This document shows positions 1-60,270 of a stretch of DNA of 64,000 nt, one piece after another. The notes below the pieces were generated by a model. It saw only the letters and a program-made list of their open reading frames with translations. It did no database searches and had not been told where the DNA came from. Position numbers and translations under genes: made by a program. Each line of letters begins with the position of its first letter. The first letter of the stretch is position 1. The stretch lies in the NCBI GenBank assembly GCA_038087875.1, contig CM075996.1, positions 1,800,001 to 1,864,000 on the forward strand, in the 5' to 3' direction. The stretch comes from Malacoraja senta (taxonomy: Eukaryota).

Positions 1-3000
1 CCGGTGTCGGGAGAACCCTCTCAGCGGCTTGGGACACCTGGAACGGCCGCTTCCTTACCGGAGACCGAGGCTTCCGAAGCCAACACTCCAATGCTCCACC
101 ACTGGCGGTCTCGGCGAGAGATCCCAGGCTCCCGTTGTTAAAGTTCAACCCGCAGACGCACAGGTTTATAGGTGAATTGGCTTGGTATAATTATATAATT
201 CTCCCTCACGTGGGTAGGATGGTGCAAGCGCGGGGATCGCTGGTCGGCACGGACTCAAGCCTGTTCCCGTGCTGTATCTCTAAAACTAAAAACTAAAATT
301 TGCTGGTGAAAAATCATGACAACAATTCTGTGTGTAATTGCAACCTGTCTTCTTTTGGCTGCTTTGTGATTCTAGGTAATTTCCAAGCTAATTTTAAAAT
401 TAAGATTTGCTGTATTTGCTCCTGTTGCTATTTAATGGGAAGCATCTTCAGGCCTTGTATAAAATTAAGCATTGATGTCTTGTGCGTTCCATGTTTTAGC
501 GATCGGGAATATCCTCCGACTCTTCAAGACATCATTTACACCCAATATCTTTCTGCCTGGAGGAGGTAGTTGATGCAGGTACAATGACAACATTGAACAA
601 AACACTTGGACAGGCACAGAGATAGGAAAAGGTTACAGGGATGAGCGACAAACACAAGCAAATGACAATAGACAATAGGTGCAGGAGCAGGCCATTCGGA
701 CTGGCTTGGACAGAGAATCTTGGTCAGTGTAGAGGTGTTGGGCCAAAGAGCCTGTTTCCGTACTGTACGACTCCAATTCTCCAATGTTGCCAATTCTTTC
801 ATGGGAAGATGGCTATTTAATTGGGAATCAATTATTCTAGTTTATGGTTTATTGTCAGGTGTACCGAGGTACGATGAGAAGCCTTTGTTGAGTGCTAGCC
901 AGCCAGCGGAAAGACAATACGTGATTACAATCGAGCCGTTCACAGGGTGCAGATACATGATATGGTGAATAACGATTATTGCAAGGTAAAGTCCAGTAAC
1001 GTCCGAACAATGATAGTCCAAGGGTCTCCAATCAGGTAGATCGTAACGTACACAAAAATGCTGGAGAAACTCAGCGGGTGCAGCAGCATCTATGGAGCGA
1101 AGGAAATAGGCAACGTTTCGGGCCGAAACCCTTCTTCAGACTAACTCTGGACGGCTAATAAGTTGTTGGTAGGATCTGTCGGAAAGAACTGCAGATGCTG
1201 GTTTAAATCGAAGGTAGGCTCGAAGGGCCGAAGGGCCTACTCCTGCATCTATTGTCTATTGTCTGTGTGGAAATGGCCATTAGGTCATAAGGAATAGGAG
1301 TAGATTCTAGGCCATTTGGCCCTTCAAGTCTACTCCGCCATTGAATCATGGCTGATCTATCTCTCCCTCCTAACCCCATTCTCCTGCCTTCTCCCCAAAA
1401 CCTCTGACACCCGTACTAATCAAGAATTTATCTATCTCTGCCTTAAAAATATCCACTGACGGCCTCCACAGCCTTCTGTGGCGAAGAATTCCGCAGATTC
1501 ACCACCCTCTGACTAAAGAAATTTCTCCTCATCTCCTTCCTAAAATAATTCCTTTAATTCTGAGGATATGACCTCTAGTCCTAGACTCTCCCACTAGTGG
1601 AAACATCCTCTCCACATCCACTCTATCCAGGCCTGTCACTATTCTGTATGTTTCTATGAGGTTCAATGATAAGGAGAATTAAAGTGTTTAGCAAACGGGA
1701 TATCAGTTACTGTTATCTAATATCTCCATTCTTGCTCACAGCTTCCACAGAATGTTACACATCATTTGCGACTCTGCTTACCAGTTTTTCCAATTAAAAC
1801 AAACTTGTCCGACTGTTCCCATGGATAACTGGGGCTAACCTCCGTCAATGTTTAACCGCAGGGGGTGGAAGAACTAACTTAATGTGCAGAGAGACACTGT
1901 AGATGTTGGAATGTTGAGCAGAACACAAAATGCTGGAGGAACCTAGTGGGTCAGGCAGCATCTGGCGAGGGTAATATGTAGGAAGGAACTGCAGATGCTG
2001 GTTTAAACCGAAGATAGACACTAAAAGCTGGAGTAATCAATGGGTCAGGCAGCAATAGTCAACAGACAATAGACAATAGGTGCAGGAGTAGGCCATTTGG
2101 TCCTTCGAGCCAGCACTGCCATTCAATGTGATCATGGCTGATCATCCCCAATCAGTACCCCGTTCCTGCCTTCTCCCCATATCCCCTGACTCCGCTATTT
2201 TTAAGAGCCCTATCTAGCTCTCTCTTGAAAGCATCCAGAGAACCTGCCTCCACCGCCCTCTGAGGCAGAGAATTCCACAGACTCACCGCTCTCTGTGAGA
2301 AAAAGTGTTTCCTCGTCTCTGTTCTAAATGGCTTACTCCTTATTCTTAAACTGTGTGGCCCCTAGGTTCTGGATTCCCCCAACATCTGGAACATGTTTCC
2401 TGCCTCTAGCGTGTCGAAGCCCTTAACAATCTTATATGTTTCAATGAGATCGCCTCTCATCCTTCTAAACTCCAGAGTGTACAAGCCCAGCCGCTCCATT
2501 CGCTAAGTCTCTAGGCATTCTCTAAGCATCTCTGGACTGGTGTGAAGAAGGGTCTCGACCCGAAACGTCACCTATTCCTTTTCTCCAGAGATGTTGCCTG
2601 ACCCGCTGAGTTAGTTACTCCAGCTTGTTGTGTCTGACTGGGGATGGAATGTTTGGTCTGGTTTGGTTTGGTTTCGTTTGGAGATACAGCATGGAAACGG
2701 GGGGTCTTCGGCCCACCGGGTCCACGCCAACCATCGATCACCCGCCCACACTAGATCTTTGTAATCCCACTTTCCCACTCACTACACACCAGGGGCAATT
2801 AACTGACAATTGGATGTGGGAGGAAACTGGAGCACCTGGAGGAAGCCCCCGCAGTCACAAGGAGGACGTGCAAACTCCGCACAGACAGCACCCGAGGTCA
2901 GGGTCAAACCCTGTTCTCTGGGGCTGTGAGGCAGCAGCTCTACCCGCTGCGCAACCGTGCCGCTCCTAAATATCGAGTGGACAAGCGATATTTCAGGACG

Positions 3001-8055: not shown

Positions 8056-8079
8056 GTGATCTATAGGGGGGAAAATGAA

Positions 8080-24829: not shown

Positions 24830-25445
24830 CCCGGGCACTTTCCCTTGCAACCGCAGGAGATGCTACACTTGTCGCTTTACCTCCCCCCTCGACTCTATTC
24901 AAGGGCCCAAGCAGTCGTTCCAGGTGCGACAGAGGTTCACCTGCATCTCCTCCAACCTCATCTATTGCATCCGCTGCTCTAGATGTCAGCTGATCTACAT
25001 CGGTGAGACCAAGCGTAGGCTTGGCGATCGTTTCGCCGAACACCTCCGCTCGGTCCGCATTAACCGACCTGATCTCCCGGTGGCTCAGCACTTCAACTCC
25101 CCCTCCCATTCCGAATCCGACCTTTCTGCCCTGGGCCTCCTCCATGGCCAGAGTGAGCACCACCGGAAATTGGAGGAGCAGCACCTCATATTCCGCTTGG
25201 GCAGTCTGCACCCCAACGGTATGAACATTGACTTCTCCAATTTCCAGGTAGTCCTTGCTGTCTCCTCCCCTTCTCAGCTCTCCCTCAGCCCTCTTGCTCC
25301 TCCTCTTCCTTTCTCCTTTCTTCCCCCCCACCCCCCAACCCCACATCAGTCTGAAGAAGGGTTTCGGCCCGAAACGTTGCCTATTTCCTTCGCTCCATAG
25401 ATGCTGCTGCACCCGCTGAGTTTCTCCAGCACTTTTGTCTACCTT
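24830..25445 (+). mobile_element. Penelope-like element (Neptune-type) 3' fragment: Cys-rich linker + GIY-YIG endonuclease + terminal repeat with hammerhead-like motif; nested in a CR1 fragment
   Basis: ORF 24594..25400 contains CNRRRCYTC...NLIYCIRCSRCQLIYIGETKRRLGDRFAEH...HFN...E QHLIFRLGSLHPNGMN, typical of PLE GIY-YIG domains. It is followed at 25351 by CTGAAGA A GGGTTTCGGCCC GAAACGTT. The CR1 sequence resumes at about 25446. Confidence 0.88.
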
Positions 25446-32502: not shown

Positions 32503-32939
32503 TAAGTCTTTCACTGCATCTTAGTACAGGTGGCGATAATAAACCAATACCTTTACTTCCAGGAAACTGTGCATTTGTACTCCAAGATCTGCACAATACT
32601 TATCAAATTCTACCCAGTGTGGTCCCAAAGTAGGAGCAAGACAACCATCTAGTGCTGTGACAGCAGTACTACAAGCAAACCCAGTCCCTGGGAATTCAAA
32701 GGCGCTGGGCCTGTACTCGCTGGAGTTTAGAAGGATGAGTGGGGGGGGAAACCTCACTGAAAGTTACCGAATAGTGAAAGGCCTGGCGAGAGTGGATATG
32801 GAGAGGATGTTTCCACTAGTGGGAGAGCCTAGGACCAGAGGGCACAGCCTCAGAATAGAAGGACGTTCCTTTAGAAAGGAGATGGGGAGGAATGTCTTTA
32901 GCCAGAGGGTGGTGAACCTGTGGAATTTATTGCCAGAGA

Positions 32940-33066
32940 GGGGATCACGACAGAAGCCTCCTCGTGGCGATCCCCGGAAACGACGACGTCAATTACGTCA
33001 ACATATTGGATGACGACAGATGCCAACTGCGAGCTCCATGTCGTCTGACACACGAGCGAATGAAAC
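32940..33066 (+). mobile_element. 127-bp non-autonomous retroposon beginning with an R2/HDV-like ribozyme core, nested in a CR1 3' fragment
   Basis: Interrupts CR1 tail sequence ttgccacagacggc. 8-bp TSD GCCAGAGA (32932-32939) / GCCACAGA (33067-33074). 5' end: GGGGATC (P1) ...GCC TCCTCGT GGC (P3/L3) GATCCCC (P1') GG (P1.1). 3' stem GACGACA/TGTCGTC followed by ACACACG. Confidence 0.75.
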
Positions 33067-39715: not shown

Positions 39716-40190
39716 ACCTGAAACGTCACCTATCCATGTTCTCCAGAGATGCTGCCTGACCCGCTGAGTTACTCCAGCACTCTGTGAAACGTCACCTATC
39801 CATGTTCTCCACAGATGCTGCCTGACCCGCTGAGTTGCTCCAGCACTCTGTGAAACGTTACCTATCCATGTTCTCCACAGATGCTGCCTGACCCGCTGAG
39901 TTACTCCAGCACTCTGTGAAACGTCACCTATCCATGTTCTCCAGAGATGCTGCCTGACCCGCTGAGTTACTCCAGCACTCTGTGAAACGTTACCTATCAC
40001 CTATCCATGTTCTCCAGAGATGCTGCCTGACCTGCTGAGTTACTCCAGCACTCTGTGAAACGTCACCTATCTATGTTCTCCACAGATGCTGCCTGACCCG
40101 CTGAGTTACTCCAGCACTCTGTGAAACGTCACCTATCCATGTTCTCCTCAGATACTGCTTGACCCGCTGAGTTACTCCAGCACTCTGTGT
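39716..40190 (+). repeat. Tandem array of about 7 x 66-bp unit derived from the PLE terminal repeat
   Basis: Unit CTCTGTGAAACGTCACCTATCCATGTTCTCCACAGATGCTGCCTGACCCGCTGAGTTACTCCAGCA. It appears as the 22-aa repeat in spurious ORF 39695..40000. Confidence 0.9.
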
Positions 40191-40647
40191 CTTTATTTTG
40201 CCATGGGGAAGAAGGCACAGGAGCCTGAGAACCCTAACCTCCAGGTTCAAGAACAGCTTCTTCCCAACAACCATCAGGCTATTGAACGCTGCACAACACC
40301 AACCGCAACCCAACTACTATGAACTTTAGACACAAAATGCTGGAGTAACTCAGCGGGAAAGGCCAGACTGACCTTCAGTCTGAAGAAGGGTCTCGACCCG
40401 AAACATCACCCATTCCTTCTCTCCAGACATGCTGCCCGCCCCGCTGAGTTACTCCAGCATTTTGTGTCTATCTTTGGTTTAAACCAGCAGTTCCTTTATA
40501 CATACAATGAACTTGTACAGGTTTCTCTAAATACTACGCCTTGCACTGTACTTTATTATAATTTAGCAAGTATAATTTATTGTACTATACTGTATATTAT
40601 TGTATGTTTGTTGCATTGTTGTGTGAATGAGTCTGCAAAGTAAGTAA

Positions 40648-41581: not shown

Positions 41582-44500
41582 CATAGACACATAGAAAATA
41601 GGTGCAGGAGTAGGCCATTCGGCCCTTCGAGCCTGCACCGCCATTCAATATGATCATGGCTGATCATCCAACTCAGTATCCCGTACCTGCCTTCTCTCCA
41701 TACCCCCTGATCCCTTTAGCCACAAGGGCCACATCTAACTCCCTCTTAAATATAGCCAATGAACTGGCCTCAACTATCCTCTGTGGCAGAGAGTTCCAGA
41801 GATTCACCACTCTCTGTGTGAAAAAGTTTTTTCTCATCTCGGCCTTAAAGGATTTCCCCCTAATCCTTAAGCTGTGACCCCTTGTCCTGGACTCCCCCAA
41901 CATCGGGAACAATCTTCCTGCATCTAGCCTGTCCAACCCATAAGAATTTTGTACGTTTCTATAAGATCCCCTCTCAATCTCCTAAATTCTAGCGAGTATA
42001 AGCCAAGTCTATCCAGTCTTTCTTCATATGAAAGACCTGACATCCCAGGAATCAGTCTGGTGAACCTTCTCTGCACTCCCTCTATGGCTATAATGTCCTT
42101 CCTCAGATTTGGAGACCAAAACTGTACGCAATACTCCAGGTGTGGTCTCACCAAGACCCTGTACAACTGCAGTAGAACCTCCCTGCTCCTATACTCAAAT
42201 CCTTTTGCTATGAAAGCTAACATACCATTCGCTTTCTTCACTGCCTGCTGCACCTGCATGCCTACTTTCAATGACTGGTGTACCATGACACCCAGGTCTC
42301 GCTGCATCTCCCCTTTTCCTAATCGGCCACCATTTAGATAATAGTCTACTTTCCTGTTTTTGCCACCAAAGTGGATAACCTCACATTTATCCACATTATA
42401 CTGCATCTGCCAAATATTTACCCAGCCTATCCAAGTCACCTTGCAGTCTCTTAGCATCCTCCTCACAGCTAACACTGCCCCCCAGCTTAGTGTCATCCGC
42501 AAACTTGGAGATGTTGCCTTCAATTCCCTCATCCAGTTCATTAATATAAATTGTAAATAGCTGGGGTCCCAGCACTGAGCCTTGCGGTACCCCACTAGTC
42601 ACTGCCTGCCATTGTGAAAAGGACCCGTTTACTCCTACTCTTTGCTTCCTGTTTGCCAGCCAGTTCTCTATCCACATCAATACTGAACCCCCAATACCGT
42701 GTGCTTTAAGTTTGTATACTAATCTCTTATGTGGGACCTTGTCAAAAGCCTTCTGAAAGTCCAGATACAACACATCCACTGGTTCTCCCCTATCCACTCT
42801 ACTAGTTACATCCTCGAAAAATTCTATAAGATTCGTCAGACATGATTTACCTTTCGTAAATCCATGCTGACTTTGTCCAATGATTTCACCACTTTCCAAA
42901 TGTGCTGCTATCCCATCTTTAATAACTGACTCTAGCAGTTTCCCCACTACCGATGTTAGACTAACTGGTCTGTAATTCCCCGTTTTCTCTCTCCCTCCCT
43001 TCTTAAAAAGTGGGGTTACGTTTGCTACCCTCCAATCCTCAGGAACTACTCCAGAATCTAAAGAGTTTTGAAAAATTATCACTAATGCATCCACTATTTC
43101 TGGAGCTACTTCCTTAAGTACTCTGGGATGCAGCCTATCTGGCCCTGGTGATTTATCGGCCTTTAATCCATTCAATTTACCCAACACCACTTCCCGACTA
43201 ACCTGGATTTCACTCAGTTCCTCTATTTCCTTTGACCCGCGGTCCCCTGCTATTTCCGGCAGATTATTTATGTCTTCCTTAGTGAAGACGGAACCAAAGT
43301 AGTTATTCAATTGGTCTGCCATATCCTTGTTCCCCATGATCAATTCACCTGTTTCTGACTGCAAGGGACCTACATTTGTTTTAACTAATCTCTTTCTCTT
43401 CACATATCTATAAAAACGTTTGCAGTCAGTTTTTAGGTTCCCTGCCAGTTTTCTTTCATAATCTATTTTCCCTTTCCTAATTAAGCCCTTTGTCCTCCTC
43501 TGCTTGTCTCTGAATTTCTCCCAGTCCTCTGGTATGCTGCTTTTTCTGGTTAATTTGTACGCATCATCTTTTGCTTTGATACCATCCCTGATTTCCCTTG
43601 TTATCCACGGATGCACTACCTTCCCTGATTTATTCTTTTGCCAAACTGGGATGAACAATATTTGTAGTTCATCCATGCAGTCTTTAAATGCCTTCCATTG
43701 CATTTCCACCGTCAACCCTTTTAGAACTAATTGCCAGTCAATCTTGGCCAATTCATGTCTCATACCCTCAAAGTTACCTTTCTTTAAGTTCAGAACCGTT
43801 GTTTCTGAATTAACAATGTCACTCTCCATCCTAATGAAGAACTCAACCATATTATGGTCACTCTTGCCCAAGGGGGCACGCACAACAAGACTGCTAACTA
43901 ACCCTTCCTCATTACTCAATACCCAGTCTAGAATAGCCTGCTCTCTCGTTGGTTCCTCTACATGTTGGTTTAGATAACTATCCCGCATACATTCCAAGAA
44001 ATCCTCTTCCTCAGCACCCCTGCCAATTTGATTCACCCAATCTATATGTAGATTGAAGTCACCCATTATAACTGTTTTGCCTTTGTTGCACGCATTTCTA
44101 ATTTCCTGTTTGATGCCATCCCCAACTTCACTACTACTGCTAGGTGGCCTGTACACAACACCCACCAGCGTTTTCTGCCCCTTAGTGTTTCGCAGCTCTA
44201 CCCATACCGATTCCCATCCTCCAAGCTAATGTTCTTCCTTTCCACTGCGTTAATCTCCTCTCTAACCAGCAACGCTACCCCACCTCCTTTTCCTTTCTGT
44301 CTATCCCTCCTGAATATTGAATATCCCTGGATGTTCAGCTCCCAGCCTTGGTCACCCTGGAGCCATGTCTCCGTGATCCCAACTATATCATAATCATTAA
44401 TTGCTATCTGCACGTTCAACTCATCCACCTTATTACGAATGCTCCTTGCATTGAGACACAAAGCCTTCAGGCTTGTTTTTACAACGCTCTTACCCCTTAT

Positions 44501-44731: not shown

Positions 44732-46265
44732 ACACTGTCTAATAGCATTCTCTATTTGAGTCCCTTGGCTATCCCTCTATATGATAGCCTTGGTCAGGAT
44801 AACTGCATTAATCTCCAGGCATGGTACGACAGCAGGGGTAGATTGGTCTTGGAAGGTGTAGAGTGCAGGCCCGGATGGAGGAATGTGGACAATAGACAAT
44901 AGACAATAGGTGCAGGAGTAGGTCATTCGGCCCTTCGAGCCAGCACTGCCATTCAATGTGATCATGGCTGATCATCCCCAATCAGTAGCCCGTTCCTGCC
45001 TTCTCCCCATATCCCCTGACTCCGCTATCTTTAAGAACCCCATCTAGCTCTCTCTTGAAAGTATCCAGAGAACCGGCCTCCACCGCCCTCTGAGGCAGAG
45101 AATTCCACAGACTCACCACTCTCTGTGAGGACAAGTGTTTCCTCGTCTCCGTTCTAAATGGCTTACCCCTTATTCTTAAACTGAGTGTGGCCCCTGGTTC
45201 TGGACTCCCCCGACATCGGGAACATGGACAGGGTAGCGGTGGGTGCCGGAGGTCAGCAGGGACCCGCCGTCGAGGCCAAAGAGGGACAATTGGAGACTAC
45301 TATGTAACTTGGTCAGCACCCTATGCATACCTTGCAAAGAACCTCACGGTGACGTCACACGTGATAATGAAGTACCGATCAAACAAATTACGACGATTGG
45401 CTACACAAAACACTTTCTTGCTTGACGTCAAATAAACGTAAAGGATATTGAACAGCATGAAGATTCTGTGCAGGAGGGAACTGCAGATGCTGGTTTGCAC
45501 CGAGGATAAACACAAAATGCCGGAGTAACTCAGCGGGACAGGCAGCATCTCTGGAGAGAAGGAATTGGTGACTTTTCGAGTCTGAAGGAGGGTCTCGACC
45601 CAAAACGTCACCCATTCCTTCTCTCCAGAGATGCTGCCCGTCCCGCTGAGTTACTTCAGCATTTTGTGTCTGTGAAGATTCTGTATTTGTGCTCGTCCCA
45701 TTTGCCTGCATTTGGCCCATAGCCTTCTAAACCCTTCCTATCCATGTATCTGTCAGTTTAGTTTACTGTCACGTGTACCGAGGTACAGTGAAAAGCTTTT
45801 GTTGCGTGCTAACCAGTCAGCAGAAAGACAATACATGATTACAATCGAGCCGTCCACGGTGTACAGATACAGGATAAAGGGAATAACGTTTAGTGCAAGG
45901 TAAAGCCAGTAAAGTCAGATCAAGGATAGTCCGAGGGTCACCAATGTGTTAGATAGTAGTTCAGCACTGCTATCTGCTTGTGGTAGGATGGTTCAGTTGC
46001 CTGATAACAGCTGGGAAGAAACTGTCTCTGAAATGTCCAATTGTCCACATGTATTGTATCTGTTTCTCCAGCATATTGAAGGAGATGGAAGATACCAGTG
46101 ATGAGAGGAGATGATGGTGTAAGTGAACAAGGTGCATTTTCACATCTTTCTAGTAGTTTCATCCCACCAGTAAAAAAAAATTCAGACTAATTTTAATGTA
46201 TATTTGACATTTACAGTATGTAGTTAATTGAACTTAAATTTCCCAGCTACTGAAGTTTGGATTTG

Positions 46266-46367
46266 TATTTGGGTCTGAGGAAGGGTTTCGGCCCGAAACG
46301 TTGCCTATCTCCTTCGCTCCATAGATGCTGCTGCACCCGCTGAGTTTCTCCAGCATTTTTGTCTACC
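46266..46367 (+). mobile_element. 102-bp Penelope-derived mini-element with minimal hammerhead motif and 10-bp TSD
   Basis: TSD TTTGGATTTG at 46256-46265 and 46368-46377. The paralogous inverted copy has a single CAAATCCAAA (48942-48951), i.e. the empty site. Motif CTGAGGA A GGGTTTCGGCCC GAAACGTT at 46275-46302. Confidence 0.85.
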
Positions 46368-46858
46368 TTTGGATTTGAATTGATGTTCCCAGTTTTAAGT
46401 TCGAGCCTACAGAAAGCTGGACAATAACTAAACCATCTTGCGTCCACTGTGTGAGAGCAAACCAAGAGATCCCAGGGGCTACTAATCACAGTTTCTTCCC
46501 AGCTGTTATCAGGCAACTGAACCATCCTACCACAACCGGAGAGCGGTCCTGAGCTACCATGTACCTCATTGGAGACCCTCAGACTATCTTCAATCAGAGA
46601 GAGGTTTAACAGGCAAGTACTTTATTCCTTGGAGCGCAGGAGGCTGAGGGGTGATACAGAGGTTTGTAAAATCATGAGGGGAATAGATCGGGGGGATGCA
46701 CAGACCCTTTTACCCAGAGTAGTGGGATCAGTGTGGAGTCGCCCCCCCCCCCCCCCCCGGCCACTCCCTCTTCTCCCCTCTCCCATCAGGCAAAAGGCAC
46801 AGAAGCATGAAAACGCACACCTCCAGATTCAGGGACAGTTTCTTCCCAGCTGTTATCA

Positions 46859-48170
46859 AGTTCAAGTTCAAATTCAAGTGAGTTTATTGTCATGTGTCCC
46901 TGATAGGACAATGAAATTCTTGCTTTGCTTCAGCACAACAGAACATAGTAGGCATTGACTACAAGGCATTCTATAAATATATACACACATGAATCAATAT
47001 ACTGATAAAGTGCAAATAACAGTATTGGCTAATAAAGTTCAGTGTTATGTCCAAGCCAGGTTTAATAGCCTGATGGCTGTGGGGAAGTAGCTATTCCTGA
47101 ACCTGGTCGTTGCAGTCTTCAGGCTCCTGTACCTTCTACCTGAAGGTAGTAGGGAGATGAGTGTGTGGCCAGGATGGTGTGGGTCCTTGATGATACTGCC
47201 AGCCTTTTTGAGGCAGCGACTGCGATAGATCCCCTCGATGGAAGGGAGGTCAGAGCCAATGATGGACTGGGCAGTGTTTACTACTTTTTGTAGTCTTTTC
47301 CTCTCCAGGGCGCTCAAGTTGCCGAACCAAGCCACGATGCAACCGGTCAGCATGCTCTCTACTGTGCACCTGTAGAAGTTAGAGAGAGTCATCCTTGACA
47401 AACCGACTCTCCGTAATCTTCTCAGGAAGTAGAGGCGCTGATGTGCTTTCTTAATAATGGCATCGGTGTTCTCGGACCAGGAAAGATCTTCAGAGATGTG
47501 CACGCCCAGGAATTTGAAGCTCTTGACCCTTTCAACCATCGACCCGTTGATATAAACGGGACTGTGGCTCCCCATCCTACTCCTTCCAAAGTCCACAATC
47601 AGTTCCTTGGTTTTGCTGGTGTTGAGGGCCAGGTTATTGTGCTGGCACCATATGGACTGTTGCTCGATCTCTCTTCTATACTCTGACTCATCCCCATCAC
47701 TGATACGTCCCACAACAGTGGTGTCGTCAGCGAACTTGATGATGGAGTTCGCACTATGTCCGGCTACGCAGTCATGAGTATAGAGTGAGTACAGCAGGGG
47801 GCTGAGCACGCAGCCTTGAGGTGCTCCCGTGCTGATTGTTATCGAGTCTGACACATTTCCACCAATACGAACAGACTGTGGTCTGAGAGTGAGGAAGTCG
47901 AGGATCCAATTGCAGAGGGATGCGCAGAGACCCAGTTCTGCGAGTTTGGTAACCAGCTTGGAGAGGATGATTGTATTAAATGCCGAGCTGTAATCGATGA
48001 ATAACAGTCTGACATATGAGTTTTTGTTGTCCAAGTGGTCCAGAGCGGAGTGGAGGGCCAGCGAGATCGCATCCACCGTTGATCTGTTGTGGCGGTAAGC
48101 AAACTGCAGTGGGTCCAGGTTTTTGTCGAGGTAGGAGTTGATCTGCGTCATGATCAACCTCTCAAAGCAC
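46859..48170 (-). mobile_element. Rex1/Babar-clade LINE, 5'-truncated, with uninterrupted RT ORF and (TTGAAC)n tail
   Basis: ORF 47045..48196: [60 protein letters not shown]. Inserted into gctgttATCA|ggcaac of an older element, with ATCA on both sides (46855-46858, 48171-48174). Confidence 0.9.
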
Positions 48171-48751
48171 ATCAGGCAACTGAACCATCCTACCACAACC
48201 AGAGAGCAGTCCTGAGCTACTATCTACCTCATTGGTGACCCTCAGACTATCCTTGATCAGACTTTGCTGGCTTTACCTTGCACTAAACATTATTCCCTTA
48301 TCCTGTATCTGTACACTGTGGACGGCTCGATTGTAATCATGTATTGTCTTTCCGCTGACTGGTTAGCATGCAACTAAAGCAACCTCGGTACAGGTGACAA
48401 TAAACTAAACTGAACTAATCACTTCGGGATATTAAGCTAGGTTGTTTTTTAGAAGCTATTCCTCTTTGCCAACTGTAAAAGAGCACACATTTCTTATTAG
48501 GAGCCCCCTTTGTCTTGAATCTGTTAAAATACCAGAAATTGGAATTAGCTATGATCCTGTGGTTGACCTCGTGGTCAATCCCACTTCTCACAACTGACTG
48601 TCATCTATATACAAATGAAAAATCAGGCGTAATAATCCTATTGGCATGGTGGGTGAGAGGTAGTGGTGCTGCCATACAGCTCCAGCGATCCTGATTCCAT
48701 CCTGACTACCGGTGCTGTTTGTACAGTTTTGTACAGTTTTGTACAGTTTTG

Positions 48752-49112
48752 TAGAGGTAGATGGTAGCTCAGGACCGCTCTCCGGTTGTGGTAGGATGGT
48801 TCAGTTGCCTGATAACAGCTGGGAAGAAACTGTGATTAGTAGCCCCTGGGATCTCTTGGTTTGCTCTCACAGTGGGCGCAAGAGGGTTTAGTTATTGTCC
48901 AGCTATCCATAGGCTCGAACTTAAAACTGGGAACATCAATTCAAATCCAAACTTCAGTAGCTGGGAAATTTAATTTCAATTAATTACATAAATGTCAAAT
49001 AAATAAAAATGTAGTCTGAAGTTTTTTTTACTGGTGGGATGAAACTACTGGAAAGATGTGAAAATGCACCTTGTTCACTTACACCATCGTCTCCTCTCAC
49101 CACCCCTGGTAT
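48752..49112 (-). repeat. Inverted duplicate of 46092-46567, inserted inside an HE1 SINE
   Basis: Reverse complement aligns by eye over about 360 bp of mostly unique sequence. The SINE head is at 48640-48730 and resumes at about 49113. (GTACAGTTTT)x3 sits at the left junction. Confidence 0.9.
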
Positions 49113-51820
49113 CTCCTGGTGACCTGCGTGGGTTTTCTGGTCTTTCTACGGGATCGCTGGTCAGCGCGGACTAAGTGGGCCGGGGGACCTGTTTCCACGC
49201 TGTATCTCCAAACTAAACTAAACCTGGACAAGTACATGGATAGGAAAGGCTTAGAGGGATATGGGCCAAATGCAAGCAAATGGGACTACCATAGATGGGG
49301 GTGTCCTGACCGGCATGGACAAGTTGGGCCGAAGGGCCAGTTTCCGTGCTGTGTGGCTCTATACCTAATTGAAAGGGGGAGTGCAGGGAAATGATAAGGG
49401 ACTGGGTTTAATTGGACTGTTCCTTGATGATGGGCAGAATGGCCAGCCTCTGCACACAAGGCGCTGGATGGGTAGTGAGATGGTGCAATCAACCTCTAAA
49501 GGTCGAAATCAAAAATAAACAATCACAAAATAAATAGCAGAGATTGATGATAGGTGTTAACCAGTGGAGGAGAATACAGTCAACTAATCGAGGCGAGATT
49601 CCAACTCTCCCCATTGTGAATACAGGGGGGTAAAGAATAAAAGGACGTTCCTTTAGAAAGGAGGAGGAATTTCTTTAGCCAGAGGGTGGTGAATCTGTGG
49701 AATTCATTGCCACAGACGGCTGTGGAAGCCAAGTCAATGGATATTTTTAAGGCGGAGATTGACAGATTCTTGATTAGTACGGGTGTCAGGGGTTATGGGG
49801 AGAAGGCATGAGAATGGGATCGAGAGGGAAAGATAGATCAGCCATGATTGAATGGTGGAGTTGACTCGATGGGCCGAATGGCCTAATTATGCTCCTATAA
49901 CTTATGGCGATGAACTAATGAGGAAAGGGTGGGGAGTGGTGGCAAATTATTGGATCAATTACATCTTTATCCAGGGAGTAATTAGATCATGGAGTTTGCT
50001 ATAATTTTGTAGATTTCACAGGATGGAAAAAATCATAGAGGGCTTAGCTTTAAGGGAATGGAGAGATGTGGATTATGTGGAGGCAGGTAAGAGAGTTGGT
50101 CTTGCAATCATGTTCCAAGATTGGCATACAGTAAGATCATAAAAGTAAGTAAGTAAGTAAGTTTATTGGCCAAGTATTCACATACAAGGAATTTGCCTTG
50201 GTGCTCCGCCCACAAGTAACAACATGACATACAGTGACAGTTACGAATGACTCAGAAAACACTAACCATTAATAATAATAAAACATTAATGATAAAACAC
50301 CATCGATCAAGCATGTGAACCAACAAAATACCAGATCAAAGGGGGGCTGCAGATTTTTGGCTGTTGAGTAGAGCAACTACTCGTGGATAAAAACTGTGTT
50401 TATGTCTGGCTGTGGCAGCTTTGACAGTCCGGAGTCGCCTTCCAGAAGGAAGTGATTCAAAGAGTTTGTGGCCAGGGTGAGAGGGGTCAGAGGTGATCTT
50501 GCCCGCTCGGCAAGATCATAAGATCATGTGATAGGAGCAGAATTAGGCCATTCGGCCCATCAAGTCTACTCCGCCATTTAATCATGGCTGATCTATCTCT
50601 CCCTCCTAACCCCATTCCCCTGCCTTCTCCCCATAACCCCCGACACCCGCACTAATCTAGAATCTATCTCTGCCTTAAAAAATATCCACTGACTTGGCGA
50701 AGAATTCCACAGATTCAACAGATTGTGGGCCGAATGGCCTGCCCTTGTGCTGTACTGTTCTATGCTCTATGTTCCGCAACGAGATGGGCGAAGGATGGGT
50801 TGAGGGGGGGGGGGTTAAAGGAAGAGCGATAGCAAGATGAGGGAGTTGATCCAACCAGCCCCGGCGGTCTCGATGTTAGGGAACGGACCAAGTTTACGCA
50901 GGAGGTCCCCTTACTTAATGGTATCTTGCTTCTCCGAGCGTGGACCGTTTGCACAAGAATTCATTCGCTGCCTTCCATATCTGGTCCGGCAACGGTTGGA
51001 CATTAATAGGTGGTTTGCTTAGCACCAAACCAAGCCAGCCTGTAAAACAAGGTCCAGTTGAAAATATATTTTCCAAGTGAGACCGTGACAGGGAAGGGAG
51101 ATAAAGGATTGGCGGCGGTTTAAGTGCAACTGTTGTGGACTGTAACCGTGCACCACCGACTCGATCCATTGCACGATCGAAATCGATATGGAGACATCTT
51201 CTGCCCGACCCATGGACAACCGACTCTCTGGTACGACCCGGTCACAACTTTGAATTGACCTGGTTGAGAAGTTGGACTAGCTATTTATTTTCTTTTTAAT
51301 TCCCAGGATTCTCACTAATTTGTATATATTTTATTCCCAGTCCTTTAAAAAATAACTTTCTTCAGCCCCTTCGTTCACAATGGGGATAGCTGAGAGGATG
51401 CCCCCAATATGTTGGCTGTGTGTGTGTGTGTGTGTGTGTGTGTTTGTGCATTGGAAAGCACTTGCGGACACTGATTGCTCTACATTGCGCCGTTGAACGA
51501 AATTTCGTTGCGGCCCTGCGGAAGAGGGCAAGGGGCGAGAGGACAGGTGTGCCCACCTGGCCAGAAGTCAGGCCTATGGCCACCTGGTCCCACAACACAC
51601 CCACACACCTGTGACAACCGTGCCGCCTCGCCTCGCGCCGGAACCACTCCACACACCTTTAACACACTTGCCATCCTGAACTCCACCTGATGTGTCTATC
51701 CCCTCGCTCTCTTTCCACAAAGAGGGTGGTGGGTGCATGGAACAAGCTGTCAGAGGAGGTAGTTGAGGCTGGGACTATCCCAGCGTTCAAAAGAAGCAGT
51801 TGGACAGGTACATGGGTAGG

Positions 51821-52025
51821 TACACAAAAAATGCTGGAGAAACTCAGCGGGTGCAGCAGCATCTATGGAGCGAAGGAAATAGGCAACGTTTCGGGCTGAA
51901 ACCCCCCCATCAGTCTGAAGACGTTGCCTATTTCCTTCGCTCCATAGATGCTGCTGCACCCGCTGTGTTTCTCCAGCATTTTTGTCTACCTTCGATTTTC
52001 CAGCATCTGCAGTTCCTTCTTAAAC
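51821..52025. mobile_element. Fold-back (head-to-head) Penelope-derived mini-element with 17-bp TSD, nested in a CR1 3' tail
   Basis: TSD ACAGGTACATGGGTAGG at 51804-51820 and 52026-52042. Two inverted arms of the PLE terminal repeat. Confidence 0.85.
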
Positions 52026-53873
52026 ACAGGTACATGGGTAGGACAGGTTTGGAGGGATATGGACCAAACGCGGGCAGGTGGGACTAGCGTAGCTGGGACA
52101 TGTTGGCCGGTGTGGGCGCGTTGGGCCGAAGGGCCTGTTTCCATGCTGTATCACTCTATGCCAACTTTCCTCGTCGCACGCAATTCCGCGAAACACTGCG
52201 TGCCAAGTGACATTTCCACGTCTTATACAACTCCGGTAAAATGTCAGAAATTGGATGTCATTGTTCAGTTCAGTCTAGTTTATTGTCACATGTACCGAGG
52301 TATGGTGAAAAGCCTTTTGTCGCATGCTAACCAGTCAGCGGAAAGACAATACATGATTACAATCGAGCCATTTACAGTGTACAGATACACGATAAGGGAA
52401 TAACGTTTAGTGCAAGGTGAAGCCAGCAAAGTCCGGTCAAGGATAGTCCGAGGGTCACCAATGAGGTAGATAGTAGTTCAGGCCATTCTTTATGTTGCTT
52501 CTTCACCCAGAGAGTGGTGAGTCTGTGGAATTCTCTGCCTCAGAGGGCGGTGGAGGCAGGTTCTCTGGATGCTTCACAAGAGAGAGCTTGATAGGGCTCT
52601 TAAAGATAGCGGAGTCATGGGATATGGGGAGAAGGCAGGAACGGGGTACTGATTGGGGATGATCAGCCATGATCACAGTGAATGGCGGTGCTGGCTCGAA
52701 GGGCCGAATGGCCTACTCCTGCACCTATTGTCTATTGACTATAAATGTGGTTTTAAATAATGTGTTGTATGTGAGGGCTATCGAACTAATTGTCCATTCT
52801 CTGTTCAATTGCTATTTTGGTGGTTGCGGGGCGAGGGACAGAGGGTTTAACAACGTGAGTTACATCGTTCGGTATTTAATCGCTGATATAAACATATGAT
52901 AAAAAGTCATATTGTGGGTGACGGGGGCCAGTGTGTGGATCACCTTTATCTGCAGCAGCCACGGGACGAGCCAGGAGATATGTGAACGCTCCCGCCCAAC
53001 AGCCGCTTTCGACGGTGGACTACTTTGGAAGACACACACATACACACTCACACTCACACACACTCACACACACACACACACAAACTCCTTGGGTGCAAGT
53101 GTGTAAAATTAGCGCGGAGCTGGGAACGTGGCGACGAGGTATGTCGACCAGGAAATGCTCGTGAAATCTCCTGAAATCCGATGCTTGCCAACAAATTATA
53201 TGGATGCAGACAAGTTAGTGTTTTTCTTGCACTTGTGCGCACGACGGGTGTTACACGTCTTACACGTTTCTGGCACTATTAGCACAGTGACACACCCAAC
53301 AATACATGACACTAACGCACGCACACAAGGGAACACACTTGCATTCAAACATAGTCAGACATAAACACCAGCAACGTGTTGCACTAACACACCTGTTCAC
53401 TATTGTTCACAAGCATATATATGTTGTCACACACACGGTGGTAAACACAACCAGCTACTAATAAAACGTGACCGATATAGGTACAAACCTGTGTACGTTA
53501 GTGCAGTGATTCACACTCACACACGCGTGTACACACTCGTGCGTTTCAGCGCACCAGCAACTCGACCAGAAACACACTCACCGTGTAATCAGATGCACGA
53601 GTGTAAACAGACACTGACACTAGTTCAAAATCAAACAGGTGAATGTTCACCATCAGACACAACTGTGTTGTGTGACGGGCGGGGAAACACAATCGAGACA
53701 CGAGCACACTAAAGCTCACAGCTGTACACGATGAGAGAGAGACGGAGAGAGACGGAGAGAGACGGAGAGAGACGGAGAGAGACGGAGAGAGACGGAGAGA
53801 GACAGAGAGAGACAGAGAGAGACAGAGAGAGACAGAGAGAGACAGAGAGAGAGCAAGAGAGACAGAGAGAGAC

Positions 53874-54023
<150 letters not shown>

Positions 54024-56109
54024 TGAATGCAGGGACATTAACACGCGGGATTCACCCACAAGCGCCAAACTGAGATCTCAACCATTTACTATCCATGCAA
54101 CTGAGCCTCACATCAGTTTGAACACACACACCAGTAGCGCACAAACATCCCAATGCAAAGTGCAACCCACTAACACGCTCACACTGTCTCTCACACACTC
54201 GACCGGCGCAGAGGTAACTCGTTATTCGTCGAAAACAAGTTGCCTCGTCCGCTTTTGCTTCTGCACACAATTTCTCAGTTTGTCAATGGGGGAAATAGCC
54301 CACGCCATTTTATACACTTCTCATCTACATCAATCTTCCCCTGAAAGCCGTGAGATATAAGGGGTGAGACAGGTTGGCAGATGGAGAGAGAAGAGAGAGA
54401 GAGAGGGGGGGGGAGAGAGAGGAGGGGGAGAGAGAGGGAGGGGAGAGAGAGAGAGGAGAGAGAGAGAGGGAGAGGGAGAGGGGGGGGGAGGGAGGGAGAG
54501 AGAGAGGAGGGAGGGAGAGAGGAGAGGGGAGAGGGGGAGGGAGGAAGAGATGAGGAGAGAGCGGGGAGGGGAGAGAAGAGAGAGAGAGAGGGAGAGAGAG
54601 AGGAGAGAGAGGGAGGAGGGAGAGAGGGAGAGAGGGGGAGGAGGGGAGAGGGGGAGAGAGAGGGTAAGACAGAGAGGAGAGGGAGAACACAGAATGCCAG
54701 ACACAGAGTGCTGGTCAGGGAGACAGAGAGAGAGAGAGAGAGGGGAGACAGAGACAGACAGACAGACAGACACATACGGGAGAGACGGGGACAGAGACAG
54801 AGAGAGACAGGAGCGACAGGAGAGACAGGGAGAGAGAGCGAGAACGATGGGCAGATATGGAGACAGAGATTGAGAGACAGGGAGAGAGACAGAGGGGGAA
54901 GTAGATAGATAAAAGGCCGAGTGAGATGAACATAGGCCTCTCTCTGATCCATTATATAAATGAACACGTAGTTCCCAAGCTGAGAAAATTTAAAAAGATG
55001 TATGTTTGGCTTTGACTAAGAAGTAACATGATATTCATTCCTGTAGGGCCTATTGACAATCAGATTTTAAGTTAATACAGAGGTGTGTAGTCGCGGCCTT
55101 TATCGTTGGAGATGTGGTGGGAATGTTGGCTGTAAATTGTCCCCCAGGTTATGGGGTACCTTCCAACTCATTTGGCGACCAGAAAGTGGGGAGTGAATGG
55201 TTGGGTGTGCGTTGCGCCTGTGCCTCAAGTAGCAACGTTGCGCTGGTCCAATCTTCGACATGGATGGTGAAGAAATCACTGGCACTCGCTCTCACAATAA
55301 AACCACCTCTGCTTTCAAAAAAAAAAAAACGAAAGGTTGATTTAGGAAAAGGTCTGGGATTTCATCTGGCTGTTCGGTGTAAAATGGATCAAATTGTTTT
55401 TTTGTTATTTTTAAACAACACATTTCGAGAGAGTATTGGGGGTTTCCATAGGGTCGGTCTGCGCTCTGACGCAGCCAGACAGTCAGGTTAATTTTCACCC
55501 ACTGTTGGAGAATTAAATGCAACATGGCTCAGACTGCCGGAAAATCTTGGAAACAAAATGTATAATGGTTTAAATGTCAGTTTTTTTCCTCCTTTTAATT
55601 AGTCCCCTGGCTTAATGATTTTTTTTTTTTGTAAACTCTTACTATAAAACTGGGCAAAGATTATTTTTGCCACTCCGAGCGCAGGCGGTAAACAGAAAGG
55701 TGATATTGCCTGTGATGCAACAAAGGGCTACAGTGTGTAAGTGACAGCACGGGTAAACGTGTAAGTGTCAATGCAAGTTACAGAAAACACTAAAGTGCAT
55801 GTTACGCTGCGTGTTGGGAACGGGCGCATTAAGACGTGCGTTAGTGTGTGAATGGAAAGATTCCGTTAACATTGCGTGTGTGTATGTGTGCGGTGAAATG
55901 AGGGTGTAGCAGACTGCGTGTGGCGTTGAGTAATCTGCCAGAGTAGACTGCGTGTGCGTTGAGTAATCTGCCAGAGTTAAATGATGTGCGAGTCTGTGTG
56001 CGTTAAATGATCTGCGGGCGAGGGTGTGTGTGTGCCAAAATATTGGTGTGTGCGTGTGCGCTAGCTTGTGGTGGGACTTGTGCTCTTGAAGATGTACATG
56101 TTTGTGTGC

Positions 56110-56156
<47 letters not shown>

Positions 56157-56747
56157 TGTCTGTCTGTGTGCGTGAGACTGTGTGTGTGTGTGTGTGTGTC
56201 TCTGTCTGTCTGTGCGTGAGACTGTGTGTGCTTGTGTGTGTGTGTGTGTGTGTGTGTGTCTGTCTGTGTGCGTGAGACTGTGTGTGTGTGTCTCTGTCTG
56301 TCTGTGCGTGAGACTGTGTGTGCTTGTGTGTGTGTCTCTGTGTGTGCTTGTGTGTGTGTCTCTGTCTGTGTCTGCGCGTGAGACTGTGTGTGCTTGTGTG
56401 TGTGTGCTTGTGTGTGTGTGTGTGTGCTTGTGTGTGTGTGTGCTTGTGTGTGTGTGTGTGTGTGTGCTTGTGTGTGTGTGTGTGTGTGTGTGTGCTTGTG
56501 TGTGTGTGTCTCTCTGTCTGTGCCTGTGCGTGAGATTCTGTGTGTGTGTGTGTGCGTGTGTCTCTGTCTGTGCGTGAGACTGTGTGAGCTTGTGTGTGTG
56601 TGCTTGTGTGTGTATGTGTGTGTGCTTGTCAGTGTATGTGTATGTGCGTGTGTGTGCGTGTGTGTGTGTGTGTATGTGCGTGCGTCTGTGTGTATGTGCG
56701 TGTGTGTGTGTGTGCGTGTGTGTGTGTATGTGTGCTTGTCAGTGTGT

Positions 56748-56829
<82 letters not shown>

Positions 56830-57200
56830 TTGAGTGGAATGGTGCAAGTTGGGCTGTGCCAAGCAACCAAACAGAGTGTTGGGCAATGTTCGCCTCTTTG
56901 CACACTTGACTAAAATGGATCACATTAGTACCCTAATGATCACCCTTCTATATCCCCGCACCCTGCTGAATGGTTGATTTGCAGCATTTGCCGCCTTTGA
57001 TTACTGTTTTGCTGCTGTTTGGTTTGGTGAGGCTGGTGTTGGCTCTGTGGGAGCGCACTGCCAGCCGCCCGCAAGTCTCTGGCCTTGGTCGCTCTAAACT
57101 GCAGTTCGCAGCTTGGAAGGGAAACGGGGGCTTTAACCTGGAACTTGGTGGTGACATTGATTGTGGAGTTTGTTTTAAAAAGGATGATGTCCTAGTGTTT

Positions 57201-57322
57201 TGGGGGTCGGGGTCGGGAGGGGTGGGTGGAGTGGGGTGGGGTGGAGTGGGGTGGGGTGGAGTGGGGTGGGGGGGTGGGGTGGGGAGGGGTGGGGTGGGGT
57301 GGGGTGGGGTGGGGTGGGGTGT
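57201..57322 (+). repeat. (GGGGT)n G-rich repeat, G-quadruplex-forming potential
   Basis: More than 15 G-runs of 3-7 nt separated by 1-3 nt. Confidence 0.85.
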
Positions 57323-58889
57323 GACTACCTCGCCATCCTCACCCCAGAAGCCAACGTCAATCCCTGCCCCCATAGCACAGAGTGCTGGAGTAACCAAGCA
57401 CTTTGCAACCCAAGTCCAATTTACAGCCAGTGGAACTACTTCGCCGAGCCTCAGCCGGTCGGACAGCATCTGTGGAGGCGACGTTTCAGATCGGGAACCT
57501 TCTTCAGACATCAACCTTCGCCAGCATTGACTCATTCTAGACAAGGCTGAGATTGAAGTTGGCTTTAACTAGGACGTGTGATCTTATTTGGGAGTGAAGT
57601 GGTGATTGGGACTAGGGGGGGTGGTGGCTGCACAAAAGCCACGCGTCCAGTTTCTCCCCCAACCTCATCTCTCCACCCATCGCCTCGCCTCCCTCCCCAT
57701 CTCAAAGCTACATCTCCAGTGCAACCCCCTGGATCATCTGGTGGAGTTTGGTTGCTGGAGCCACGGAGGAGAGGGTGGATGGTTTTGGATGCTCCAGCGT
57801 TGTCAGTGACCACCCTCAAACGCTTTTTGTGGTAAGGGCTTCCCGACCAGGTATTGGGAGACACAGAAAGCCCAGACCGCAAAAAGATCCGAGGGGGACT
57901 TGTCTTCTGTCTTCGTGGCCTTGCGGGTGGCGGTGATCCCTGCATCCATCCTCACTCAGCCTTCGCCGCTCTCGGCTTCAAGGGACCTTTCTCCCATCGC
58001 CGAGGACTTTCCTCGGGCTCCTTAATCTCTGCCGCTCGGTAAAGAAGTGCGCCGTGAGTCCCCCGTCACACCATACCCCATCCCCATTGCCCACGGTGGG
58101 GCCAGCGCAGCTAGCTAGACCATTCTCCCTTGCTCTCGCATTCGACTTCATTCCCCCCCCTCCCCTCTCTCTGTCTCTTCCCCGGCTCCCTCCCCGCCGC
58201 TGCTCCTCTCCCTCTCGCAGTCTGGTGAATCTGCGTAAAAAAAGCTTCTAACCTTCAACCTGAATCAGTTCATTAAATAGCCGTGCGTGCGCATGTGCAA
58301 AGCGTCAAGGCACGTTGTTCTTAACCTATCGCGTCCGCTCCTTGTAAAAGGCTCAGCCTCTTCAAGACACCCTTTGCGAGCCGGGCTTCAGAAACTGTCC
58401 CCCCCCCGCCCCCCTCCCTGCCTACCCACAGCCTTGACAAGCCACCTACCCGCGCCAACCTTCCATCCCCAACCCTTTGGCAAAGATGAACCCACCCTCG
58501 CACACCTTGCCAACCAGCACAGCCTCCAACGTGGGTCACAAGATCCACGCCCATCTACCAAAGGGTTTCGACACCACCCACCCCACCCCCCCCCCCCAAT
58601 GGCACAGCCGACACCACCGCTTTCCAATCCCCATCCATTCCTCACCCTCCCACACGTTCACCTCCCGCAACCCATCGGACATTGGCTTCCCCCCCCCCCA
58701 AACGCCTCTCTCCAATCTCATCTTCCACACAATCTCCCACAAGCCATTCGACCCCGCGCTTCTGCAAACCCGCCGCAGTCCTCTCCTTGGTACCACCCAG
58801 CCAAGAACCATTTGCTCACCGTCCTCCCTCTCCCTCTCCCTCTCCCTCTCCCTCTCTAGCTCATGGGTTTACACACTCGCCCCCCCCCA

Positions 58890-58971
<82 letters not shown>

Positions 58972-58972
58972 T

Positions 58973-59055
<83 letters not shown>

Positions 59056-60178: not shown

Positions 60179-60219
<41 letters not shown>

Positions 60220-60229
60220 TACATACACA

Positions 60230-60270
<41 letters not shown>

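What the first reader, a model, noticed from the sequence alone, without database searches (positions are those of the whole stretch)
46256..46377. Filled versus empty site shows a 102-bp hammerhead-bearing Penelope mini-element inserted with a 10-bp TSD
Seen: one copy of a local inverted duplication carries the insert between two TTTGGATTTG. The other copy (48942-48951) has the decamer once. The insert starts a few nt before CUGAGGA-A-GGGUUUCGGCCC-GAAACGUU, and here stem I can form (UGGGU 46270-46274 with GCCUA 46303-46307). Known: PLE terminal repeats carry minimal type I hammerheads with a palindromic ACGU stem III that act as dimers. Inference: these short units move on their own using the Neptune-type enzyme, like retrozymes.
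Basis: partly seen in the sequence, partly recalled or inferred. Interest (0 to 1): 0.7.

Follow-up and report, generated by a model that had tools for sequence, protein, structure and literature searches.

The report
Stub of a Penelope retrotransposon end
A 102-base scrap from the end of a common jumping gene was pasted into this fish genome, leaving a 10-base duplication; it is a clean but ordinary example of how Penelope-type retrotransposons insert, not a shown self-cutting mobile RNA.

Summary
In detail: 102 bp (46266-46367) lie between two identical decamers, and the inverted paralogue has the decamer once. Contigs of two other species indicate only the empty junction, so this is an insertion. 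95 of the 102 bp are the terminal repeat (pLTR) of a Neptune-like Penelope element; a 92/95-identical copy follows a GIY-YIG remnant at 25349. The retrozyme reading is not supported. The predicted cleavage site lies inside the unit; 0 of 42 window copies start there; this copy is single; and three of the five stem-I pairs use junction bases that the family lacks. Copies end at two 3' sites about 38 nt apart (the known PLE 'tail'), and 12 of 13 head-to-head pairs carry the tail on one arm only. All of this is described PLE architecture. Best reading: a minimal, target-primed, internally initiated pLTR stub. Still open: 20 of 42 copies start within two bases, just before the hammerhead core at an initiator-like palindrome, so solo pLTRs may propagate themselves without cleavage. 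The scan noted the same kind of palindromic stubs in a shark genome (e1-7858806).

The parts
46256..46265 (+). left copy of the 10-bp target-site duplication
46266..46272 (+). 7-nt 5' junction sequence, not part of the family; supplies 3 of the 5 'stem I' pairs
   Evidence: loose ends before 46273 end in CATCA in 4 of 4 runs; not seen before the other window copies printed
46273..46367 (+). 95-bp tail-less pLTR stub of a Neptune-like Penelope element (subfamily A)
   Evidence: 92/95, 91/95 and 90/95 identical to copies at 25349, 1141 and 60809
46275..46302 (+). minimal type I hammerhead core: CUGAGGA, bulged A, 4-bp helix II with UUCG loop, GAAA, palindromic ACGU; predicted cut after 46302 (GUU)
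   Evidence: layout compared with PMC4209133; no Rfam hammerhead hit
46368..46377 (+). right copy of the TSD; first 2 nt also match the element's continuation (priming microhomology)
46089..46577 (+). copy 1 (filled) of a local inverted duplication
48752..49115 (-). copy 2 (empty); single decamer at 48942-48951
24840..25252 (+). 3' remnant of the partner ORF: CX4CxxC linker and GIY-YIG endonuclease
   Evidence: Pfam GIY-YIG E 1.4e-4, 22.6 bits, at the cut-off; elasmobranch homologues up to 79% identical
25253..25445 (+). pyrimidine-rich 3' region and ORF-linked pLTR with the native CATCAG-TCTGA junction; 2-bp stem I
51818..52027 (.). head-to-head pair of subfamily A arms, tail on the + arm only, flanked by a 17-bp direct repeat that overlaps both element ends

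Best explanation
A minimal insertion made by the protein of a Neptune-like Penelope element. Shown: the insert is that element's terminal repeat, it is new at this site, and it has a 10-bp TSD, 2-4 nt of 3' microhomology and a 7-nt 5' junction. Inferred from PLE biochemistry: the GIY-YIG endonuclease made staggered nicks 10 bp apart; the reverse transcriptase primed on the nick at the nearer of two internal start sites in the pLTR RNA (hence no 'tail'); it copied an uncleaved RNA through the hammerhead and stopped after 95 nt at the CATCAG-TCTGA junction, a 5' hotspot; repair joined that end and filled the gaps. The hammerhead is a passenger here and cleavage is not needed. The template was most likely RNA of a longer PLE copy, which makes the stub mainly a dead end.
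For: Filled/empty pair. Other species: one contig each over the right flank, both running 13 and 7 letters past the decamer into non-insert sequence; in run X3 a left-flank contig overlaps it by exactly 30 letters across the decamer (table 8). Identity to the pLTR after a GIY-YIG remnant; a zebra-shark protein reads through into a translation of the same motif (P0009). 3' ends of 41 copies: 18 at +92..100, 19 at +124..134, 4 elsewhere; 12 of 13 head-to-head pairs have the tail on one arm only. Direct repeats scoring 8 or more at 6 of 22 units against 8 of 462 mismatched flank pairings. Same features published for PLEs: 8-10 bp TSDs, inverted pLTR, optional tail (PMC3846280, PMC8557442); two internal RT starts that define the tail, with hammerhead mutants inserting normally (PMC11167929); solo minimal hammerheads attributed to truncated PLEs (PMC4209133).
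Against: 5' ends are far from random: 20 of 42 copies start at +1/+2 and only 5 of 42 reach 10 or more nt upstream, which also fits a short RNA with its own start. The family is very abundant (51,612-60,867 contigs laid per run) with no full-length ORF in the window. A few head-to-tail joins of the whole 95-bp unit exist (4 contigs in X1, 3 in X3; letters between not known). No explicit skip-112 joint row was displayed (36 joint rows hidden), so the empty state in other species is inferred from contig ends. No RT of this family was seen; the biochemistry comes from a Poseidon-clade element.
Confidence: 0.6

Rival explanations
1. Self-propagating solo pLTR, SINE-like but without ribozyme action. 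An initiator-like TCAGTC just before the core starts transcription, the RT-binding and internal start sites lie about 95 and 135 nt downstream, so any such transcript is copied back to its own 5' end and regenerates the unit with both ends fixed.
For: 20 of 42 starts at +1/+2; TCAGTC fits the initiator consensus (recalled); D. virilis Penelope has an internal promoter in its pLTR (PMC2377424); RT start is independent of the RNA 3' end (PMC11167929); pLTR sequences alone supported integration in trans in a rotifer (PMC3846280); a 66-67-bp tandem derivative with the same junction sits at three window loci.
Against: Most stubs, this one included, have lost the TCA of the initiator. Only 2 of 7 subfamily-A copies start at +1/+2. 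Centres of the head-to-head pairs all differ, so no single palindromic master is being copied. RNA reads: both orientations about equal, 99% run on into unlike sequence, no begin/end pile-up (polyA library of another organism, 6% read). The same hotspot is explained by the 9-bp palindrome TCAG-T-CTGA acting as a joining site.
Confidence: 0.27
2. Repair-mediated templated insertion, or mobilisation by another enzyme (CR1/L2 RT, polymerase theta), of an abundant repeat RNA or DNA at a staggered break.
For: 7-nt junction filler that resembles the target decamer; 3' microhomology; L2/CR1-type RT remnants nearby.
Against: Both ends coincide with family-wide boundaries seen in 4 of 4 runs and in the window; TSDs of 9-17 bp recur at other units.
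Confidence: 0.06
3. Retrozyme: tandem transcripts are cut by dimeric hammerheads into ~100-nt monomers or circles that PLE RT reinserts.
For: Catalytic core and helix II are kept (92% of cells paired); rare head-to-tail joins; vertebrate retrozymes derive from pLTRs and leave monomers (bioRxiv 2026.07.22.740005).
Against: Cut site is internal (+30); 0 of 42 copies start there. Helix I pairs 3-5 form in only 3 of 16 copies each, and no covariation above shuffles. Helix I probability about 0 in the whole insert and 0.07-0.08 in the isolated core; the double-hammerhead fold is -18.5 against -33.2 kcal/mol for the best dimer. The nearest same-strand core (45582) has lost G12. The window's tandem arrays lack CUGANGA in repeated units.
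Confidence: 0.05
4. Deletion from copy 2 between two chance decamers.
For: Copy 1 has diverged more than copy 2 from the two other species on the right flank, so its history is not simple.
Against: The segment equals a repeat unit with family-wide ends and differs from the majority letter at about 2 of 95 positions; two other species show only the empty junction; a chance decamer at that distance is rare.
Confidence: 0.02

Closest known systems
EN+ Penelope-like element insertions with pLTR, inverted pLTR and optional tail (Arkhipova et al. 2013, PMC3846280; Craig et al. 2021, PMC8557442)
   Same: TSD of 8-10 bp, head-to-head pLTRs with a palindrome at the junction, 30-40 bp tail at one end only, foreign DNA captured between solo pLTRs, filled versus empty site used as proof.
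   Different: Reduced to one 95-bp arm with no ORF; the units are very abundant, and half of the window's copies start within two bases.
Poseidon_Ac of Anolis (Frangieh et al. 2024, PMC11167929)
   Same: Two internal RT start sites downstream of the hammerhead, with the tail between them; uncleaved RNA as template.
   Different: Different clade (a Zn-finger-like linker is present here); PAc primed without homology in vitro, whereas junctions here show 2-4 nt microhomology; PAc's ORF starts inside the hammerhead, which was not shown here.
Minimal type I hammerheads of metazoan PLEs (Cervera and De la Pena 2014, PMC4209133)
   Same: CUGANGA and GAAA core, bulged base before helix II, palindromic ACGU, mostly solo copies, some opposite-strand pairs.
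   Different: Native helix I only 2 bp (4-5 bp typical there; 2 bp in D. virilis); U at position 17 in this subfamily.
Animal non-LTR retrozymes (Cervera and De la Pena 2020, PMC7229834; Li et al. 2026, bioRxiv 2026.07.22.740005)
   Same: Non-coding, type I hammerhead, pLTR origin, TSD longer than 4 bp.
   Different: Retrozymes are tandem arrays with a complete hammerhead in each unit and give circular RNA; this is a single unit with an internal cut site and no RNA evidence.

Membership tests
EN+ PLE (Neptune-like) pLTR insertion | Sequence is the terminal repeat of a GIY-YIG-ending ORF | tested here: met
   92/95 identical to 25349-25443, which follows the GIY-YIG remnant
EN+ PLE (Neptune-like) pLTR insertion | C-terminal GIY-YIG preceded by CX2-5CxxC linker, RT upstream | tested here: met
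   CX4CxxC in P0001; homologues P0006 and P0020 carry RVT_1 then GIY-YIG; linker in 41 of 45 long relatives. The RT itself is not in the window; the motif is shared by Neptune and Nematis (PMC8557442)
EN+ PLE (Neptune-like) pLTR insertion | Clade placement by RT phylogeny | not tested
   No reference set of named clades was at hand; 'Neptune-like' rests on domain order, linker and a vertebrate host
EN+ PLE (Neptune-like) pLTR insertion | Optional 30-40 bp tail, at one end only; inverted pLTRs | tested here: met
   Bimodal 3' ends (18 and 19 of 41); 12 of 13 pairs discordant
EN+ PLE (Neptune-like) pLTR insertion | Variable-length TSD | tested here: met
   10 bp here; 6 of 22 units versus 8 of 462 controls
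EN+ PLE (Neptune-like) pLTR insertion | pLTR overlaps the first codons of the ORF | tested here: inconclusive
   An ATG frame is open through the tail in one subfamily-A copy but stops in most B copies; no match to the N-termini of 45 long relatives, none of them close
Minimal type I hammerhead | Core CUGANGA / GAAA / palindromic helix III and helix II | tested here: met
   Helix II 92%, helix III 87.5% of cells paired in 16 copies; no covariation above shuffles
Minimal type I hammerhead | Helix I of 4-5 bp | tested here: inconclusive
   5 bp (two G-U) in this copy only, from junction bases; 1-2 bp in the other 7 of 8 regex-matched cores; not favoured in folding
Minimal type I hammerhead | Self-cleavage as dimer or with protein | not testable with these tools
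   Needs an assay
Non-LTR retrozyme | Two or more tandem units, each with a complete hammerhead | tested here: not met
   Single unit; the two arrays examined repeat a 66-67-bp piece without CUGANGA
Non-LTR retrozyme | RNA unit delimited by self-cleavage, expressed as circles | tested here: inconclusive
   DNA ends do not map to the cut site (0 of 42); no begin/end pile-up in one polyA run, which would miss circles
Classical SINE | tRNA, 5S or 7SL-derived Pol III head | tested here: not met
   No such Rfam match over 46200-46450 at E up to 10

The most novel reading that the evidence does not exclude
In skates and rays the 95/135-nt solo pLTR has become a mass non-autonomous retroposon that needs neither a Pol III head nor ribozyme cleavage: its 5' end is a Pol II start at the initiator-like TCAGTC beside the hammerhead core, and its 3' ends are the two internal RT start sites. 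Each asymmetric head-to-head pair would then record a dimeric PLE protein priming both target strands, one at each start site, making these stubs a genome-wide readout of the PLE integration intermediate.
Probability: 0.25. Interest if true: 0.55.

Novelty: new member of a known kind. Interest (0 to 1): 0.25.

Why it matters
As it stands, a tidy filled/empty example of known PLE behaviour and a usable lineage marker. Its value is as material: tens of thousands of ORF-less stubs with two 3' ends, a sharp 5' hotspot and one-sided tails could test how PLEs prime and resolve both strands, and whether pLTR hammerheads do anything in mobilisation. Both questions are open in the papers read.

Tried and rejected
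No whole genome is held, so the genome survey was replaced by a window census and one read-laying run. Rfam hammerhead models did not hit the insert. Folding gave no stability signal (z 0.31 for the insert). Covariation in 16 cores did not exceed shuffles. Searching for the ORF N-terminus among 171 proteins found only chance short matches. The idea that the 7-nt junction is a spliced 5' exon (the native upstream looks like a polypyrimidine tract plus CAG) found no support: only 23 RNA reads reach 46272 against 1,673 at 46279, and no other copy printed shares it. The junction matches the reverse complement of the tail end at 6 of 7 letters, a possible vestigial second arm, but this is post hoc and local re-copying of the decamer fits as well. 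Cap-templated G before the start was considered; such cases are explained by the partner arm. Paper searches for a description of this repeat in skates found none (0 papers; 1 unrelated; some searches gave general papers); the library lacks most subscription journals and Repbase/Dfam were not searched, so this is no proof that it is undescribed. Lunse et al. 2016 on dimeric cleavage was not held; only its title was seen. Supplements of the bioRxiv preprint, which list the chondrichthyan retrozyme families, could not be seen and may include this family.

Full report
Observation. The decamer TTTGGATTTG stands at 46256-46265 and 46368-46377 with 102 bp between, and once at 48942-48951 on the minus strand, inside an inverted paralogue. 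The paralogues agree at 162 of 170 ungapped columns to the left and 182 of 188 to the right. Outside two simple-repeat clusters this is the only non-low-complexity 10-mer repeated at that distance in the window. The window is vertebrate (mir-129 above its gathering score). The closest named proteins to its GIY-YIG remnant are from skates, then rays and sharks, so a skate-like host is inferred. No whole genome is held.

Direction of the event. I laid 4 of the 22 listed runs on 46020-46490. In runs X2 and X3 (organisms B and C) a single contig covers the right flank. It shares copy 2's letters and runs 13 and 7 letters beyond the start of the decamer into sequence unlike the insert. In X3 a left-flank contig continues 13 letters past the decamer; 7+10+13 = 30 letters is the overlap expected of neighbouring contigs built from 31-mers, so the two span an empty site. 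In X1 (organism A, best holder, perhaps the source sample) a contig identical to copy 1 stops at 46368, as expected where a filled and an empty junction branch; this reading depends on my interpretation of the table's strand convention. No explicit skip joint was displayed (36 joint rows hidden) and X1 has a coverage hole at 46212-46259, so these are inferences from contig ends. Together with the paralogue they make insertion the parsimonious event. The insert departs from the majority letter at about two of 95 positions (46279, 46309; two more, 46332-46333, are split near half), so it is fairly young.

What the insert is. Bases 46273-46367 are 92/95 identical to 25349-25443, which follows a pyrimidine-rich stretch and the end of an ORF remnant with a CX4CxxC linker and a GIY-YIG domain (Pfam E 1.4e-4, at the cut-off). 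Homologues carry RT followed by GIY-YIG (P0006, P0020), and a zebra-shark protein reads through into a translation of the same motif (P0009). That is the layout of Neptune or Nematis PLEs (PMC8557442, passages seen); I did not place it on an RT tree. At 88% likeness 51,612, 60,867 and 59,078 contigs and 6,287 of 7,335,232 RNA reads were laid. Contig counts are not copy numbers, but the family is plainly very abundant.

Ends. Loose ends before 46273 have consensuses ending in CATCA in 4 of 4 runs (agreement 0.35-0.40), and only 23 RNA reads reach 46272 against 1,673 at 46279. So 46266-46272 is junction sequence, not element. Behind 46369 the family continues into about 38 further bases, so the first two bases of the right decamer could be element or target: a priming microhomology. 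A profile from 12 window copies gave 52 hits; I merged 10 internal tandem units into their arrays and set ends by hand for the remaining 42. With G46273 as +1: 20 of 42 start at +1/+2, 22 within -2..+2, 5 reach 10 or more bases upstream, and 0 start within 2 nt of the post-cleavage position +31. Among the 7 subfamily-A copies only 2 start at +1/+2, so the hotspot is mostly a subfamily-B signal. Of 41 defined 3' ends, 18 fall at +92..100, 19 at +124..134 and 4 elsewhere. Of 13 head-to-head pairs, 12 have the extension on one arm only (binomial P 0.002; hand calls that include one interrupted tail, one arm cut at +49 and one very short arm), and their centres all differ. Direct repeats scoring 8 or more flank 6 of 22 units against 8 of 462 mismatched flank pairings; examples are 9, 12, 12 (one mismatch) and 17 bp, several overlapping the element end by 2-4 nt.

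The hammerhead. Core, bulged A, 4-bp helix II with a tetraloop and palindromic ACGU match the minimal PLE motif (PMC4209133, abstract, results and discussion read). In 16 aligned cores helix II is 92% and helix III 87.5% paired, without covariation above shuffles; helix I is 49% paired, its outer three pairs forming in 7, 3 and 3 of 16 (many of these copies have unrelated flanks there). Folding does not favour the ribozyme: helix I probability about 0 in the insert and 0.07-0.08 in the isolated core; double-hammerhead -18.5 against -33.2 kcal/mol for the best dimer (tertiary contacts and protein help are not modelled). The nearest same-strand core has lost G12. In the polyA run, read orientations were about equal, 99% of reads ran on into unlike sequence and no begin/end pile-up was listed. 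That run is of another organism, 6% was read, and polyA selection would miss circles.

How it most likely works. Shown: identity with the pLTR, a new insertion, TSD, microhomology, family-wide ends. Inferred: staggered nicking by the GIY-YIG domain, target-primed reverse transcription from the nearer of two internal start sites, copying of uncleaved RNA through the hammerhead, termination at the CATCAG-TCTGA junction and end joining with 7 extra bases. The inference rests on the anole element, where RT starts at two internal sites that bound the genomic tail, both strands are cut and extended, and hammerhead mutants insert normally (PMC11167929, abstract, main text and start of methods read). 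It also rests on rotifer elements with 8-10 bp TSDs, inverted pLTRs, 5' palindromes and a one-sided tail (PMC3846280, passages). Why 5' ends cluster is open: the site is at once a 9-bp palindrome, an initiator-like hexamer (consensus recalled) and a look-alike of a splice acceptor. D. virilis Penelope has both an internal promoter and an intron in this region (PMC2377424, passages). I give 0.6 to dead-end stubs of longer RNAs and 0.27 to self-propagating solo pLTRs; both use the same enzyme.

Comparison. It works like, and belongs with, EN+ PLE pLTR insertions. It fails the retrozyme test: those are tandem units each with a full hammerhead, expressed as circles (PMC7229834, passages and one section; bioRxiv 2026.07.22.740005, parts 1-3 of 5, which also reports retrozymes in one chondrichthyan, their monomers and their pLTR origin). 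Against my reading, rare head-to-tail joins of the whole unit exist (4 contigs in X1, 3 in X3), and a 66-67-bp tandem derivative recurs at three loci, though without the CUGANGA box. A review (PMC6765202, passages) adds nothing contrary.

Verdict. Real, ordinary in kind: a new member of a known kind, interest 0.25. The sharp 5' hotspot and the one-sided tails in ORF-less stubs are what would repay a genome-wide look.

Noticed in passing
window 25666-25970: Two head-to-head pLTR arms (one with tail, one without) enclose 87 bp of unrelated repeat sequence, and the whole is flanked by a 14-bp direct repeat with one mismatch: host DNA captured between solo pLTRs.
   Followed up: partly
window 39719-40189, 9144-9383, 8074-8200: Tandem arrays of a 66-67-bp piece of the pLTR (from GAAAC to just before the nearer 3' end), 7.0 and 3.7 copies plus one junction, with the same joint at three loci; repeated units lack the CUGANGA box.
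   Followed up: partly
window 51818-52027, 45467-45672, 24023-24228, 40327-40503: Head-to-head pLTR pairs with 9-17 bp target duplications, each with the tail on one arm only and a different centre.
   Followed up: yes
window 25290-25350: Polypyrimidine tract plus CAG directly before the hammerhead core looks like a splice acceptor; a spliced 5' exon could complete helix I, as described for D. virilis Penelope.
   Followed up: no
window 31955-32023 and 32929-33000 (+): Two HDV/CPEB3-like ribozyme matches below the gathering score (28.1 and 25.8 bits), about 1 kb apart.
   Followed up: partly
window 57817-57892 (-): mir-129 precursor, 76.3 bits, above its gathering score.
   Followed up: no
window 46250-46255: The target flank just left of the TSD reads CTGAAG, the same hexamer that opens the family's hammerhead core; possibly chance.
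   Followed up: no
window 42396-44225 (-) and 47045-48223 (-): LINE ORF remnants: endonuclease plus RT, and RT with ALKBH8_N-like domain.
   Followed up: no
window 46378-46490: Both window paralogues share letters at 46430 and 46438 that differ in two other species, while copy 1 alone carries five or six changes; duplication after the species split or gene conversion could explain it.
   Followed up: no
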